Part shown: one piece after another, positions 1,987 through 24,550 of the stretch
Layout: every line of letters starts with the position of its first letter
Numbering within the stretch: the stretch's first letter is position 1
Assembly: GCA_964016885.1 (NCBI GenBank)
Contig: OZ024750.1
Location: 10,540,001-10,604,000 of the forward strand
Origin: Eledone cirrhosa
Lineage: Eukaryota
DNA: 64,000 bases
Direction: 5' to 3'
Position numbers and translations under genes: made by a program
Notes under the pieces: model-generated
The model's database searches: none
What the model saw: only the letters and a program-made list of their open reading frames with translations
What the model was told of the DNA's origin: nothing

Positions 1987-2398
1987 TACGAGGGCAATCC
2001 CAAAAGTAAGGTCTGCTTCCGATATTGCAACTTCCGATATTGCAACTTTTCCGTTAAAATCCTGTGGATGGTCCTTCGGGAAACTCCAGGAACCAAAATG
2101 CAGAGAACATCCAGAGTGATCCGCCGATCTTTACGCATGTTTTCCTCGGAAGGAGACCTTACTTTTGGGATTGCCTTCTATATAATAACTGCGCGAAATT
2201 CGCACTTGGCGGTAGCGTTCAACGGGAGCTCCATTCTCAACGGCTGCCAAGCCAAGATTGAGCATCCCTGCGAAGCGCGCGCATGCTTGTTTGGGAGTGA
2301 AGGAAGCACCAATCACAACAGTGTTGCCAACAGCCGTACGAACAGTTTCTCTGCGTCCCCATCGCTTTGGAGACCTTACTTTTGGGATTACCCTCGTA
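1987..2398. mobile_element. Tc1/mariner-type MITE with 28-bp TIRs and an extra internal right TIR
   Basis: TACGAGGGCAATCCCAAAAGTAAGGTCT at 1987-2014 has reverse-complement matches at 2371-2398 and 2154-2180. TA flanks. Confidence 0.85.
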
Positions 2399-2443
2399 TA
2401 TATATATATCTATATATCTATATATATCTAAGGATATATACAC

Positions 2444-3130
<687 letters not shown>

Positions 3131-3414
3131 CATCGTTTGATCCTAATACCGGGTGTTCGTTTTCTAAACCCACCTATTTTACTGAAACAAAACACCACAA
3201 CTAAGTTATATGAATATTAATAGATTAATCTTTAGAAATTTAATGGAACTCTCCACCTTATTGTGTATACATACGATTGATTCTGTGTATGTTTGTTTGT
3301 ATGTTTGTATGTATACATATTTGGGTTAACAGACATACACACTCACACAACACGCACAACCTTGTATATATGTATATATGTATATATGTATATATGTATA
3401 TATGCACGTATCTA

Positions 3415-3463
<49 letters not shown>

Positions 3464-3995
3464 CAAAAACGAAGGAGAGGCGGTGTTTCTGTGCGTAATA
3501 GCCATGGCGAAAGAGGTTGTATGGTGGACGCGTCTGAAAGGACTGAAGTCAGACACCTTTCTCTCTGGCCAACAACTGGTCCGTTTCTTCCGATATCATT
3601 TCGGAAGAAGGATCAGGATGGAGAGAGAGGTGCTGCACCCCAGCCGTTTCTATGAAAGATGGGTGAAAGTGGCGAGAATGGCCCGTGTGAATGGGCCTTC
3701 ACTCTACATCAGACTATAGGTGAGGAAGATGAAAGACCAAGGGAGCACCCCTTCTCTGTGCTCCTGAGGAGAAGGGTTGCACACTTTTTTCGGGGGTGTG
3801 TGCGACCCCCCAAGGCGCCTCCTCTCTATCGAGGGCTTTGTTATAAATTTTATTTTTTGTTATATTTTATTTTATTTTTATATATTGTTATTGCCTCCTC
3901 CCTATTGAGGACGCCTTGTTTTGTAAACTCCCCCCATTGTACTTGTCCCACTTTTGATGCCCTGGTGGCAAATAAAAGAAACATATCTATCTATC
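3464..3995 (+). mobile_element. 5'-truncated Tx1/L1-type LINE 3' end (ORF2 C-terminus plus 3' UTR)
   Basis: The frame ending at 3719 reads FLCVIAMAKEVVWWTRLKG...FFRYHFGRRIRMERE...FYERWVKVARMARVNGPSLYIRL*, resembling L1/Tx1 ORF2 C-termini (K..IW..R and F...W pattern). AATAAA at 3971 and (TATC)n on both sides. Confidence 0.7.
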
Positions 3996-4010
3996 AATCA
4001 ATCATGTAGT

Positions 4011-4258
4011 TGTCTCCGTGGCCTAACGGTAGGTACTAGAGACGGTGGAGATCCTGGTCTGGTGTTCAATCCTGATCAAGAAGTACATGTAACCTTTTTG
4101 GGTGTGTGTGACCCACGTCAACGCCCCCTCCCTATTGAGGACTTCGATTGTTGAATTTGATTTGTTATATGTTTTTACACGTCCCTTGAAATGTATGTAA
4201 ACTCCCCCTCTTGTATTTGTCCCAATCTTTGATGCCCTGGTGGTGAATAAATAGAAAG

Positions 4259-4307
<49 letters not shown>
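4011..4307 (+). mobile_element. tRNA-headed SINE (family S3) whose 3' half matches the adjacent Tx1-type LINE 3' UTR
   Basis: A box TGGCCTAACGG at 4019-4029 and B box GTTCAATCC at 4064-4072. Shares CTCCCTATTGAGGAC, TGTAAACTCCCCC and TTTGATGCCCTGGTGG..AATAAA with 3895-3976. Ends in a (TATC)n tail. Confidence 0.75.
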
Positions 4308-4310
<3 letters not shown>

Positions 4311-4466
4311 ACGTTCTGAGTTCAAATCCCACCGAGGTTAGCTTTGCTTTTCATCATTACGGGGCGGAGGGTGGATAAAATAAAGTACCAGTAATGCATT
4401 GGGGTCGATTTAATCGACTTTCCCATCCCCAAATTTCTGGCCTTGTGCCTAAATCAGAAACAATTA
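4308..4466 (+). mobile_element. SINE S1, 5'-truncated
   Basis: B box GAGTTCAAATCCC, central domain and the GGCCTTGTGCCTAAATCAGAAACAATT tail. Confidence 0.85.
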
Positions 4467-4750
4467 TCCAGTTATAAAAAATGTTAATTCTATAACCGAA
4501 GCAGTGTAGATATAGCATGTATTCAACCGCTTTCCAGTTGTTGCTCATAAAATGAAAGATTTGTATAAATATTGGATTTATCATTGACATTCTTTTATAT
4601 CTCTTAGCCATACATTACACGTCTGTCATTCACGCAGGTAACTCAACAGGCATGCAATGAGTCAATCAAATATTGAGGCCCGGGATATAAAATACATCGT
4701 TTTTTTTTAAACCATACTTCCCATACCGAAATTAACTGCACAGTCGTAGC

Positions 4751-5038
4751 CAAGAGCCTTGTTTCAGGGGGGTACCAGGGGACAAGTCCCCCCCCCCCAC
4801 ACTTTTTCAAACTTCTATATATGTTGTTTTGGTTTATTTGGTATAATAAATTCTTTTTAAGCTTATTTTTTTTTATATCTGAACTTCATTTGAATATATA
4901 AAATTTAATTAGCGTAAAATTTTACTTATGTGATAGGGTCCGGCAAAAGCCACCATAAGCAATACTAACATACTCCTTTAAGATTCAACAAATGTTGGTT
5001 TGTCCCCCCTCACATTTTTAAAGCAAACAAGGCCCCTG
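4751..5038. mobile_element. hAT-type MITE
   Basis: Imperfect TIRs CAAGAGCCTTGTTT / AAACAAGGCCCCTG, with an 8-bp TSD GTCGTAGC (4743-4750) / ATCGTAGC (5039-5046). Confidence 0.8.
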
Positions 5039-5239
5039 ATCGTAGCAGGCTTTTGGATAAGAGTCATTGCAGGTTCTGTCTAATCTCTACATTAACAATT
5101 TTACTGTTTAATGTGGATGCAAAATCTGTTTGTATGGAACATCACTTTAGGGTGTCTTAATATTATTGAAATTTGCTGAATTTTGTGAATAGGCATCATA
5201 TCTTGTCATTTACCTATGATTTAAATTTTATATAAATCG

Positions 5240-5427
5240 AAGGGAAACAAATTTTCAGCGGGGGTTTGAGCCCCCGGGGAACCCTTTGATTAAAATGAAA
5301 TATACGTAAGAAATTAAAGGGCATGAGTCCCAAACACGTGTCAAGTGTCATCAAGATCAGTTTGGTAGTTTTTGAGTTTTAGGTTCACAAACAAACAGAC
5401 AGAAATTGCTATTTATGTAATACAGAT
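5240..5427. mobile_element. Possible non-autonomous Helitron/Helentron-like fragment
   Basis: Ends in TCATCAAGATC...AGTTTTTGAGTT...ACAAACAAACAGACAGA...TTTATGTAATACAGAT, a layout I associate with HINE/DINE-like elements. No second copy in the window. Confidence 0.35.
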
Positions 5428-5446
5428 TTGGTTGTACAGAGACTGG

Positions 5447-5585
5447 AGGCAACAAATTAGCCGAGTCCTTTAACGTCTGATAGAATTCTTTCTGCTCTCT
5501 CAGTTCAAATCCAGCCGAGGTTAACTTTATCTTTCATACATTTGAGGTCGATAAAAAAATACCATTTTAGTACTGGGGTCAATTC
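5447..5585 (+). mobile_element. Diverged SINE S1
   Basis: GTTCAAATCCAGCCGAGGTTAACTTT...GGTCGATAAAA...TACTGGGGTC. Confidence 0.7.
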
Positions 5586-6176
5586 TTCCTTTATATCTCT
5601 TTCTCTCACTTTCTATCCTTCTCTGGAAGAAATCTGCTCAATTCAGACATGGGGAGAGGGAGATAGGTTTGTTAATATATTTTGTTGGCATTGATAATCT
5701 TCCTGTTAATGATTTGTGGCGTTCCTGTTAATGTTGACTGTATTACTCGAGCAAAATATACAAAGTGAAAACAGCATGGAGGAAGGTTACATAAACTTGT
5801 TTCATTGGCTTTGTGTCAACATCTAGGTGTTATATATGAATGGCGTCTTGCATACAAATACATTGAAGTCAAATGAAAACACGGGAGCCAAGCAATAAAT
5901 GGAGAACCGTTATGAACATAAACATGGCGATGATGATGATGGTGACAAAAACATCAACAACACTCTGAAGAACAATAAAATACTACAGAAGTGTGTGTAT
6001 GTATATAAATGTATGTCTGTATGTCTGTATGTTTGTAAGTACACACACACGTACACATATAAATATATGTGTGTGTATATATATGTATATATATATATGT
6101 GAGTCTGTGTGTGTTTGTACATAATGCTGATTACACAATGAACGAAAAAGAGAAGGAACATGTAAATATATGTATG

Positions 6177-6262
<86 letters not shown>

Positions 6263-6314
6263 ATATATAAATATAGCATACATATATTTATTTACATATT
6301 CCTTCTCTTTTTCG

Positions 6315-6352
<38 letters not shown>

Positions 6353-6432
6353 TACTTATATATGTATATATATTTACATATATATGTATATATACACACA
6401 TATATATAAACACACACACACTTATGTGTATT

Positions 6433-6465
<33 letters not shown>

Positions 6466-6502
6466 GCACATATATATAAACACACACACACTTATGTGTA
6501 TT

Positions 6503-6539
<37 letters not shown>

Positions 6540-7039
6540 GCACATATATACATATATCACTACTCCTTTGTTTTGTCTGATTGTTCAAAGAATAAGTAGA
6601 ACCCTATAGAGCTGGAGAGTCTACCCTACTATTGATAACTTTGATATGTTAATTCAAAGCATTTGCTTAATAGAAGCAAAATAGAGAATATCAATAATTC
6701 ACAGAAACTATATATATAAATCATTTCTTAGTTACTTCCAATACACCAACTGCATATTTCATGTGTAGTAGTAGTAGTAGTAGTAGTAGTAGTTGTAGTG
6801 GTAGTAGTAGTGATTGTAGTGGTAGTAGTAGTGGTTGTAGTGGTAGTAGAAGTGGTAGTAGTGGTAGTAGTAGTGGTAGTAGAAGTGGTAGTAGTGGTAG
6901 TAGTTGTTGTTGTAATCTTAATTCCTTATTCTCTTTGATGCTGTATGTGTGCGCGCGCGCGCGCGTGTGTGTATGTGTGTGTGTGTGTGTGTGTGTGTCA
7001 CTAGCTCTCCCTCCTCTCATTCTTCCTTTTTCTCTTTCT

Positions 7040-7105
<66 letters not shown>

Positions 7106-7129
7106 CTCCTTTTGTTGTCGCGTCACTCT

Positions 7130-7191
<62 letters not shown>

Positions 7192-7327
7192 ATATATATG
7201 CCTATATATATATGTGTGCGTGTGTGTATATATATATATAGGGAAAGAATTAGGACCCCGACGGCTGAGCTCCGGCCGTTTCGATAGCTAGATCCGAATG
7301 GTATACCTGGTTTCTTACCACACTTTG

Positions 7328-7379
<52 letters not shown>

Positions 7380-7409
7380 AGATCAAAAGATGGTTAAAAG
7401 AGTTCCATG

Positions 7410-7480
7410 TATTTTATTATGCGCATTTCAAAAACAAATATCATCATGCAATAACATTTGTGTTTTCATCAGATAAAATA
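7410..7480 (-). ncRNA. Type I hammerhead ribozyme, intact core
   Basis: Reverse complement of 8025-8095. Confidence 0.85.
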
Positions 7481-8024
7481 GGAAGACATGATATGAAGGT
7501 TAAAAGACACTTGTGAATAGTGCAGTTTTAAATCAACATATGAAAAGTAGTTTTAGATTGATGTGTGATATTGGGAAAAAAGATTTTTTGAGGGGAGGGG
7601 GAGGTTGGAAAGGATGAAAAAGAGGAGCAGATGAGAGTAAAAAGTGGAGAGGAAGGAGTATAATGAGGAAGGATGAGATAGGAGGAGAGATGGGTGATAG
7701 AGAGAGAGAGATAGCTTTTATAACTGAGAAAAATATATTGTTTTACATAGAGAGGTTGAAAAACCGTTGGAAGATAATATATAAATTAAAAGAATTTGAA
7801 AATTAACGAAGAGAAAAATAATGTTAAGTTAAGGTTTGTATATTGAAGGGTTTAATAATATGTGCGATGAAAAGAAATTGTATTAAGAATAATATTTAAG
7901 GGTTTAATAATATGTGCGATCTCCCCTAAAAACATCTTTTTTCCCAATCTAAAACTACTTTTTATATGTTGATTTAAAACTGCACTATTCACAAGTGTTT
8001 TTTAACCTTCATATCATGTCTTCC

Positions 8025-8095
8025 TATTTTATCTGATGAAAACACAAATGTTATTGCATGATGATATTTGTTTTTGAAATGCGCATAATAAAATA
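8025..8095 (+). ncRNA. Type I hammerhead ribozyme, intact core
   Basis: UAUUUUAU-CUGAUGA-[16-bp helix II, one mismatch]-GAAA-UGCGCA-UA-AUAAAAUA. Helix I is a perfect 8 bp, helix III is the palindrome AUGCGCAU, and the cleavage triplet is AUA. Confidence 0.88.
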
Positions 8096-8232
8096 CATGG
8101 AACTCTTTTAACAATCTTTTAACCATCTTTTGATCTTATATATTATGTATACTCCAGTCCTACAAACTGTAGAGTGCTTCTTATCCGATATCTGCATTGC
8201 TTTATTGTACTACAATAAAACTCACCTCCTAC

Positions 8233-8298
<66 letters not shown>

Positions 8299-8786
8299 GG
8301 TGTTTGGGTGTTTGTGTGTGTGTGCTATGTATGTATGTAAGTATGGGCAAATAAAAACCTGGTCTGGGCTAAAAACATTTTGAGGAAAACCGACGTAAGA
8401 CCCGCACAGGTCTACAAAGACATTTAAATATCCAGAGCCCAGGAAATTTAACAACATCGTGTCACTTCTGGTGAGACATACTTGTACTATTTTAATAGAA
8501 ATTTCAAACACCTGTCGGAGCCCTAGAAAAGCACGTCTGACGAGAAGTGGTCAAATGGTGGTAACATAAACAAAATAAAATACACTGGAAAAACTTTACT
8601 TGGTTTTCTGTTGTTTCATTTGCCATCAGTTGACCTTCGTATTTTCTACATTCTACTGGCTTTTAAAAAAACTTATCAGTCATTTACTACACACCTCACA
8701 ATGCTTTGTATTAATTATACTATTCTATATTTATAAATATACATATATATAAATATACATATAAATATACATATATAAATGCACAC

Positions 8787-9275
<489 letters not shown>

Positions 9276-20953: not shown

Positions 20954-21129
20954 CAAAGAGGGTGTGGTTAGGAACCAGATGGACCATAACGCACCAGAGT
21001 ACTCAATACTTAAGGTAGTAGAGTGGGTAATAGTAAAAGAGTCAGGACCCCGACGGCTGAGCTCCGAATTTAGGATCTAGCTGTCGAAACGGTCGGAGCT
21101 CAGTCGTCAGGGTCCTGACTCTTTCCCCT
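20951..21129 (-). mobile_element. Family B fold-back insert
   Basis: Reverse tail plus the inverted arm GTCGAAACGGTCGGAGCTCAGTCGTCAGGGTCC, in (TA)n. Confidence 0.85.
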
Positions 21130-23863: not shown

Positions 23864-24069
23864 TGTGGCTGAGTGGTTAGAGAATTGGATTCGCAATCGT
23901 AAGGTTGTGAGTTCGATTCCTGGACCTGGCGATGCGTTATGTCCTTGAGCAAGACACTTTATTTCACGTTGCTCCTTCTACCTGGAGTTGCGACCGATAG
24001 ATAGTATTAGCAATTGGAAAGACCAACGGAAACATTGTTCCCTCGGTCCGATTTGACGAAAGTCGATCG
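23864..24069 (+). mobile_element. tRNA-derived SINE, family S2
   Basis: A box TGGCTGAGTGGTTAG, B box GAGTTCGATTCC, and body TGTCCTTGAGCAAGACACTTTATTTCAC. Second copy at 57945-58177. Confidence 0.9.
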
Positions 24070-24190
24070 TTCCTGTATATATATATATATTTGTATATAT
24101 ATATATATATTTGTATATATATATATATTTGTATATATATATTTGAATATATACATATATATATATATTTGTATATAATATAAAACCAGG

Positions 24191-24261
24191 TATTTTATTA
24201 TGCGCATTTCAAAAACAAATATCATCATGGGATGATATTTGACTTCTCATCATATAAAATA
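24191..24261 (-). ncRNA. Family P hammerhead, C3>A variant
   Basis: Minus strand reads UAUUUUAU-AUGAUGA-GAAGUCAAAUAUCAUC-CCAU-GAUGAUAUUUGUUUUU-GAAA-UGCGCA-UA-AUAAAAUA. Confidence 0.7.
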
Positions 24262-24550
24262 GGGAGACATGATATGAAGCTTAAAAAACACTTGCGAGCA
24301 GTGAAGTGTTAAATCAACATATGAAAAATAAAATAAGATGGATATATGAGATTGGGAAAAAAGGAAAGGAAGGGGGACAGGAAAAGGTAAGGAAGAGGAA
24401 GAAAGAATATAGATAGAAGAAAAAAAAAATAATAAAGAAAGGATGACGGAGGAGGAGTAAAAAAAGGGAGGATGAGAGAGGAGGAGAAAATGAAATTTGT
24501 ATATATATATATATATATATTTGTATATATATATATATATATATTTGTAA

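What the first reader, a model, noticed from the sequence alone, without database searches (positions are those of the whole stretch)
7375..8236. Two identical, fully intact hammerheads in divergent orientation, with structure-preserving variation in a third copy
8025-8095(+) and 7410-7480(-) have a perfect core, an 8-bp helix I, a 16-bp helix II and a palindromic AUGCGCAU helix III. The copy at 24191-24261 converts three G.U pairs of helix II to Watson-Crick pairs (CAAAUAUCAUC/GAUGAUAUUUG), which supports the fold. Any transcript crossing this site in either direction would carry a ribozyme and a ~200-bp dsRNA stem, a potential A-to-I editing substrate (inference). The minus strand at 7823-7843 reads IYKP*LN, reminiscent of PLE GIY-YIG C-termini (weak evidence).
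Basis: partly seen in the sequence, partly recalled or inferred. Interest (0 to 1): 0.72.

Follow-up and report, generated by a model that had tools for sequence, protein, structure and literature searches.

The report
Inverted Penelope-like retroelement ends with hammerheads
This is a back-to-back pair of truncated ends of a very common jumping gene (a Hydra-type Penelope-like retroelement), each with its usual hammerhead RNA motif; the layout is a known insertion pattern, and read-through RNA is predicted to trap the ribozyme in a long double strand.

Summary
The two hammerheads are real and identical (71/71 nt). They are not a special device. Both are the 3'-UTR (pseudo-LTR) end of a Hydra-clade Penelope-like element (PLE); an intact natural copy has a 798-aa RT + GIY-YIG ORF between two such hammerheads. 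The genome holds 18,032 exact-pattern copies, plus 38,541 of sister families. In a sample of 100 copies, 30 sit in a head-to-head pair under 300 nt apart. Head-to-head inversion, a tail on one end and (TA)n targeting are all published PLE features.

Helix II has a C.U mismatch. IYKP*LN lies about 675 nt into the 3' UTR. In a read-through transcript all 71 ribozyme bases are predicted to pair with the other arm.

Real two-sided covariation exists across sister families. Cleavage and expression are untested. Of modest interest: a ~90-nt tail on exactly one arm in 18 of 22 pairs, and 563 identical palindromic junctions.

The parts
7375..7920 (-). 5'-truncated PLE copy: part of the 3' UTR plus hammerhead, ending at the inner (tail-less) 3' end, joined to (TA)n
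   Evidence: 94-95% identical over 546 nt to both pLTRs of the intact copy L142; ends as in 43 of 90 sampled copies
7410..7480 (-). type I hammerhead motif, identical to the + copy
7921..8236 (+). shorter 5'-truncated PLE copy: hammerhead plus tail, joined to (TA)n; carries a private 12-nt duplication near 8108-8131
   Evidence: 94% identical to L142; sequence
8025..8095 (+). type I hammerhead motif: helix I 8025-8032/8088-8095, core 8033-8039 and 8076-8079, helix II 8040-8075, palindromic helix III 8079-8086, predicted cut after 8087
   Evidence: covariation across sister families
8147..8236 (+). optional ~90-nt 3' tail; in ORF-bearing copies it continues for about 80 nt to the ATG
   Evidence: present in 45 of 90 sampled copies
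7918..7944 (.). head-to-head junction of the two truncated copies (about 7920/7921)
   Evidence: not bridged by any public contig laid
7537..7542 (.). the element's internal 6-bp palindrome CATATG, the centre of the commonest inversion junction elsewhere in the genome (not used at this locus)
7333..7374 (.). left (TA)n target tract
8237..8275 (.). right (TA)n target tract
24186..24363 (-). separate copy of a sister subfamily; its hammerhead (24191-24261) has the core change C3 to A
   Evidence: 22 of 30 subfamily loci share one intact-core sequence; 2 of 30 carry C3 to A
43188..43291 (+). solo tail fragment of the same family between (TA)n tracts

Best explanation
7375-8236 is a head-to-head pair of 5'-truncated 3' ends of a Hydra-clade Penelope-like retrotransposon sitting in a (TA)n tract, likely made in one insertion event, and each arm carries the element's standard type I hammerhead motif. 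Shown: family identity, copy number, arm structure, tail on one arm. Inferred mechanism: the element's GIY-YIG endonuclease nicks both strands of the (TA)n target; the RT primes one cDNA from each nick, one at the outer start site (with tail) and one at the inner start site (without); both stop early and their ends are joined head to head, often at a short self-complementary word. The hammerhead is cargo of the pseudo-LTR. In the parent element it would cleave weakly, as a dimer through the palindromic helix III or with help from the element's protein. At this locus a read-through transcript is predicted to bury it in the inter-arm duplex.
For: Both arms match the pLTRs of L142, a natural copy with hammerhead - tail - 798-aa ORF - 3' UTR - hammerhead - tail, unit 3,709 nt. 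The ORF has FDI and YRDD, DKT, CxCx5C, LIY..YFG, CxxC and CxH, as described for Hydra (PMC8557442 section 11), and lines up by eye with the Hydra rows of that paper's supplementary alignment. Atlas neighbours carry GIY-YIG/RVT_1/HTH_animal at scores 0.95-0.98. Among 100 listed copies, 15 of 99 neighbour gaps are under 300 nt and all 15 are divergent; within 8 kb 28 are divergent, 3 convergent, 4 tandem; chance expects 0.36 within 1 kb. Tail on exactly one arm in 18 of 22 divergent pairs. Arms of a pair are more alike than arms of different loci (median 97.5% vs 91.5%). 563 sites carry one exact palindromic junction, and loci of several subfamilies have junctions at or next to the same word. 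37 of 95 ORF-side copies have an adjacent inverted piece, after discounting 8 (TA)n-only matches. In vitro, a PLE protein nicks and extends both strands and starts RT at two internal sites that bound the tail (PMC11167929, parts 1-2 of 4). Helix II pairs covary across sister families: 4 of 6 basal pairs change on both sides.
Against: No cleavage or transcription data. Rfam misses the motif and the monomer fold is not significant against shuffles. Pfam and PDB find no RT or GIY-YIG hit for the ORF. 3 of 22 pairs have the tail on both arms and 1 runs on into the ORF. For many of the 22 pairs another locus matches an arm as well as or better than its partner does, so single-event origin is not proven pair by pair. 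No target-site duplication can be read in (TA)n. The junction of this locus is not bridged in public contigs. The unit (3.7 kb) and tail (~90 nt) are longer than the published Hydra (<3 kb) and PLE (30-40 bp) norms.
Confidence: 0.9

Rival explanations
1. The inverted arm arises by fold-back self-priming (on a cDNA end or an antisense template) at an internal palindrome, not by two separate primings.
For: Perfect palindromic junctions centred on the element's CATATG are common (563 exact sites). Self-priming was proposed for head-to-head Penelope junctions in PMC3846280 (passages).
Against: At this locus the arms are unequal (546 and 316 nt) with a ~385-nt non-palindromic spacer. Many hotspot junctions carry extra or missing bases. 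Fold-back alone does not explain why one arm stops at the inner start site (18 of 22).
Confidence: 0.25
2. The pair is a non-autonomous, MITE-like palindromic unit that was copied as a whole.
For: Hundreds of loci share the same junction.
Against: Junctions at or next to that word recur in different subfamilies, with arms carrying their own subfamily's diagnostic bases. Of the divergent pairs inspected none has this locus's junction, and contig depth falls to about zero across it. A transcript of the unit would be a long duplex.
Confidence: 0.07
3. The locus is a selected bidirectional RNA switch or editing substrate.
For: About 200 bp of duplex would form if it is transcribed. One weak zinc-finger match 31 kb away (E 0.002, below cut-off) leaves open that a gene lies nearby.
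Against: The arrangement is the family's routine insertion product. The ribozyme is predicted to be trapped in both directions. Arms differ at only 2 of 176 sites, as expected for a young insertion.
Confidence: 0.04
4. A tandem non-LTR retrozyme that makes circular RNA.
For: Type I hammerhead with a weak palindromic helix III.
Against: Copies are inverted, not tandem: 0 of 99 neighbour gaps within 2.5 kb are tandem. The sequence is the UTR of an ORF-coding element.
Confidence: 0.02

Closest known systems
Hydra clade of C-terminal EN+ Penelope-like elements (Craig et al. 2021, PMC8557442; read: passages, section 11, supplement parts 2 and 58 of 59)
   Same: Single RT + C-terminal GIY-YIG ORF; DKT; CxCx5C linker; CxxC and CxH; (TA)n target; canonical type I hammerhead near the 3' end; inverted 5'-truncated copy (noted there for Penelope-13_HM); tail on one end.
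   Different: A different family from the listed Hydra-1_oBim (different hammerhead sequence). RWI in place of RWK. Unit 3.7 kb with a ~1.1-kb 3' UTR. Tail ~90 nt against 30-40 bp. Helix II much longer, with a conserved C.Y mismatch and an A-U base. [quoted passage not shown]
PLE hammerheads (Cervera and De la Pena 2014, PMC4209133; read parts 1-2 of 4)
   Same: Type I, in pLTRs, long helix II, small palindromic helix III, mostly dispersed truncated copies; dual motifs 100-700 bp apart on opposite strands already reported in Schistosoma.
   Different: Helix I is 8 bp. No G10.1-C11.1 in this subfamily. At least 56,573 exact-pattern copies here against about 2,000-9,000 per genome reported there (by another search method).
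PAc Poseidon element of Anolis (Frangieh et al. 2024, PMC11167929; read parts 1-2 of 4)
   Same: Two discrete 3' ends bounding a tail; AT-rich target; genomic copies mostly from uncleaved RNA.
   Different: In PAc the hammerhead overlaps the ORF start. Here the ATG lies about 215 nt downstream of the cut site and the tail is non-coding.
Adineta vaga Penelope insertions (PMC3846280; passages read)
   Same: Head-to-head inverted pLTRs with palindromes at the junction; tail on one inverted pLTR.
   Different: A few copies with readable target-site duplications there; thousands in microsatellites here.

Membership tests
Type I hammerhead ribozyme | Core CUGANGA and GAAA with UH cleavage site in canonical order | tested here: met
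   (both arms; not met in the third copy, C3 to A)
Type I hammerhead ribozyme | Three helices, helix I open, pairing supported by covariation | tested here: met
   99.2% of 378 cells paired in 21 hand-picked variants; 4 of 6 basal helix II pairs change on both sides; helix I shows one-sided changes only. Core, helix I and helix III were constrained by my search patterns; helix II was not.
Type I hammerhead ribozyme | Match to an Rfam hammerhead model | tested here: not met
   none of 8 matches at E<=10 is a hammerhead
Type I hammerhead ribozyme | Self-cleavage | not testable with these tools
   needs an in vitro assay
Penelope-like element, EN+ | Single ORF with RT and GIY-YIG endonuclease between pLTRs in tandem | tested here: met
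   L142; motifs read by eye and Atlas neighbours; Pfam and PDB gave no hit. The window itself has no ORF piece.
Penelope-like element, EN+ | 5' truncation, adjacent inverted copy, optional tail on one end | tested here: met
Hydra clade | DKT in place of DKG; CxCx5C linker; CxxC and CxH around conserved E and N | tested here: met
   DKT 123, CxCx5C 657, CxxC 757, CxH 785; definition
Hydra clade | RWK motif | tested here: inconclusive
   RWI at residue 37
Hydra clade | Insertion into (TA)n | tested here: met
Hydra clade | Generally shorter than 3 kb (a tendency in the paper, not a strict rule) | tested here: not met
   unit 3,709 nt
Hydra clade | Phylogenetic placement with published Hydra RTs | not tested
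   reference proteins were only readable in a supplement; compared by eye
Non-LTR retrozyme | Tandem 150-400 nt repeats, each with a hammerhead, no ORF | tested here: not met
   definition from 10.64898/2026.07.22.740005 part 1 of 5 and PMC7761336 passages

The most novel reading that the evidence does not exclude
The palindromic helix III works mainly as an RNA dimerisation signal: it pairs two element RNAs so that the dimeric RT-endonuclease primes one cDNA on each target strand, one from each start site. That would explain head-to-head pairs with the tail on exactly one arm and give PLE hammerheads a role that needs no cleavage. This genome, with tens of thousands of copies and sister families with strong (AUGCGCAU) and weak (AUAUAUAU) palindromes, would make it directly testable.
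Probability: 0.12. Interest if true: 0.7.

Novelty: new member of a known kind. Interest (0 to 1): 0.27.

Why it matters
The locus itself is ordinary: one of thousands of similar insertions. The family is a useful resource. How PLEs make inverted ends, and what their hammerheads do, are both stated as open in the papers read. Here a young, very abundant family with an intact ORF copy gives large samples: two sharp 3' ends, a tail on one arm in 18 of 22 pairs, a junction hotspot, and no pile-up of 5' ends at the cut site (1 of 95). If transcribed, thousands of such palindromes would be a large source of double-stranded RNA; that is inference and untested.

Tried and rejected
Rfam scan of the whole window listed only microsatellite-driven miRNA-type matches in the 150 of 680 rows shown; the local scan gave no hammerhead. 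The repeat finder was swamped by microsatellites. Pfam and PDB gave no RT or GIY-YIG hit for the ORF. The look-up of sequencing runs: no RNA holder listed; the six runs are contigs of unknown kind, so expression, RNA ends and editing were not testable. No laid contig bridged the 7920/7921 junction; this is uninformative, as the runs may be other individuals. IYKP*LN as an endonuclease remnant: rejected. Third copy as covariation evidence: rejected. Hammerhead cleavage as the source of template 5' ends: not supported; of 100 ORF-side copies fetched, 95 could be mapped, 1 starts at the cut site, 22 start 3' of it (11 at +27 to +43, partly at a TA-like word) and 72 extend past it; the cluster at -391/-402 is an alignment artefact of another subfamily's UTR. 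Host gene around the locus: 83 open frames scanned, two weak hits below cut-off, so intron or intergenic status is unknown. The paper on PLE hammerhead dimers (PMC5785218) is not held; I know it only through a review's passages. Paper searches; none listed a study of this family, which does not show that none exists (Repbase and Dfam were not available). Earlier scan notes: no look-alike by sequence; those listed concern permuted Naiad hammerheads, a different motif.

Full report
OBSERVATION. The two motifs at 8025-8095(+) and 7410-7480(-) are identical over 71 nt and are the only hits of my type I hammerhead descriptor in the window. Anatomy on the + copy: helix I 8025-8032 with 8088-8095 (8 A-U pairs), CUGAUGA 8033-8039, helix II 8040-8075, GAAA 8076-8079, palindrome AUGCGCAU 8079-8086, predicted cut after A8087. 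Helix II has 16 positions: 15 pairs (three G.U) and one C.U mismatch, on an A-U base. The arms 7385-7560 and 7945-8120 are complementary at 174 of 176 sites. Against the call: Rfam lists no hammerhead among 8 matches at E<=10, and the 81-nt fold has z -0.58.

THE THIRD COPY. 24191-24261(-) differs at 8 of 71 sites. Three changes do turn G.U into Watson-Crick pairs. But one changes core C3 to A, one makes a U.U mismatch, one turns the basal A-U into G.U, and all helix II changes lie on the 5' strand. It belongs to a sister subfamily: 22 of 30 loci fetched with it share one intact-core sequence and 2 of 30 carry C3 to A. It is a damaged copy and gives no two-sided covariation.

WHAT THE SEQUENCE IS. 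The window lies in a 3.0-Gb animal genome; that it is an octopus is my untested guess from the look of its repeats. Related loci extend about 1.1 kb upstream of the hammerhead to the stop codon of an ORF, and downstream through the tail and about 80 nt more to an ATG. L142 is an intact natural copy: hammerhead, tail, 798-aa ORF, 3' UTR, hammerhead, tail, (TA)n, with a unit of 3,709 nt. The window's minus arm (546 nt) and plus arm (316 nt) match its pLTRs at 94-95%. The ORF has RWI 37, DKT 123, FDI 262, YRDD 356, CxCx5C 657, LIY..YFG 676-693, CxxC 757 and CxH 785. These fit the Hydra clade as defined in PMC8557442 section 11, and the RT, thumb and endonuclease stretches line up by eye with the Hydra rows, not the Neptune, Nematis or Poseidon rows, of its supplementary alignment. 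Pfam and PDB gave no hit; the Atlas gave neighbours with GIY-YIG, RVT_1 and HTH_animal. No tree was built. IYKP*LN maps at 4808 in L142, whose stop ends at 4134, so it is UTR; the ORF finds nothing in the window by tblastn.

HOW COMMON. An exact pattern for this hammerhead has 18,032 matches, control 0; a pattern for sister families has 38,541, control 0. Among the first 100 listed matches, 15 of 99 neighbour gaps are under 300 nt and all are divergent; within 8 kb there are 28 divergent, 3 convergent and 4 tandem pairs; chance expects 0.36 neighbours within 1 kb. I fetched loci for most of these and recovered 90 distinct copies: 43 end at the inner site, 42 end after the tail, 3 run on into the ORF, 2 are otherwise cut. 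Of 22 divergent pairs held in one locus, 18 have the tail on exactly one arm, 3 on both, and 1 runs into the ORF. The window follows the majority. Many close pairs are near-perfect palindromes centred on the element's own CATATG about 60 nt upstream of the hammerhead; one exact 36-nt junction occurs at 563 sites, and public contigs show joints at the same place. The window's own junction (7920/7921) is elsewhere and was not bridged in the runs laid.

IS THE FOLD REAL. A general descriptor run on the first 132 loci found unrelated helix II sequences inside the same core and helix I, with other palindromes in helix III. On 21 hand-picked variants, 99.2% of 378 cells pair, 4 of 6 basal helix II pairs change on both sides, and the score beats 500 of 500 shuffles and all six slid controls. 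Caveats: rows are related, and core, helix I and helix III were fixed by my patterns; helix II was free. A C.Y mismatch at the fourth position of helix II is kept in nearly all rows.

HOW IT LIKELY WORKS. Shown: two truncated ends, head to head, in (TA)n, tail on one. Known from print: PLE insertions often have an inverted 5'-truncated copy and a tail on one end (PMC8557442 passages; PMC3846280 passages); opposite-strand hammerhead pairs 100-700 bp apart were seen in Schistosoma (PMC4209133); a PLE protein nicks and extends both strands, starts at two internal RNA sites bounding the tail, and uses mainly uncleaved RNA, and its hammerhead needs the protein (PMC11167929). Inferred: one cDNA was primed from each nick, from different start sites, and the two were joined head to head. 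Arms of a pair are more alike than arms of different loci (median 97.5% vs 91.5%), though in many pairs another locus matches as well. Fold-back self-priming remains a rival for the join. The monomer helix III is 2 bp around a 4-nt loop and adds no stability (-6.4 vs -6.8 kcal/mol), while the 8-bp intermolecular palindrome gives -10.5, so dimer or protein-assisted cleavage is the likely mode in the parent element. Of 95 mapped ORF-side copies (100 fetched), 72 extend 5' past the cut site and 1 starts at it, so cleavage does not visibly set template ends.

AT THIS LOCUS. In the 862-nt transcript of either strand all 71 hammerhead bases pair with the opposite arm and helices I and II have probability 0.0; the plus arm alone forms helix I at about 0.37 and the minus arm alone does not form it. 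In a divergent pair the antisense arm is made first in both directions. A long duplex is therefore predicted if the site is transcribed, but not together with an active ribozyme. Transcription and editing were not testable here.

VERDICT. A new, very abundant family of a known clade, in a known arrangement. The locus is ordinary. The family-wide counts (one-arm tail, ~90-nt tail, junction hotspot, at least 56,573 motifs) are the only part that a specialist might use. Supplement parts of PMC8557442 other than 2 and 58, and the supplements of the other papers, were not read and may hold related sequences or counts.

Noticed in passing
window 7240-7332, 21036-21127, 31283-31389, 43394-43590, 50457-50511, 56355-56400, 57869-57925, 58729-58926, 60459-60654; fuller copies in L042, L155, L166, L232: A second PLE-like family in (TA)n, with two 3' ends and head-to-head palindromes. 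It carries the 3' half of a hammerhead with a long helix III and a GUC site; fuller copies show a type I fold with the U3/A8 core variant and a long helix II. The U3-A8 variant is described in PMC4209133.
   Followed up: partly
genome-wide; examples L123, L133, L139, L171: 563 sites share one exact perfect palindromic junction centred on the element's CATATG.
   Followed up: partly
L173-L202: Sister PLE families with the same core and helix I, different helix II and AU-only helix III palindromes; at least 38,541 copies, also often in divergent pairs.
   Followed up: partly
L142:2571-4964 (-): Intact 798-aa Hydra-type ORF with an Asn/Thr-rich stretch between RT and endonuclease; no Pfam hit at all. 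200 copies genome-wide match the 5'-UTR anchor exactly.
   Followed up: partly
window 43188-43291: Solo tail-only insertion, that is, just the stretch between the two 3' end sites.
   Followed up: no
window 39281-39613 (+): Weak single C2H2 zinc-finger match below the Pfam cut-off (E 0.002).
   Followed up: no
window 23866-23990: A tRNA-like SINE head just upstream of the third copy, recognised by eye from recall.
   Followed up: no
window 28458-28549: Near-perfect 90-nt hairpin; the same sequence appears beside PLE copies in L030.
   Followed up: no
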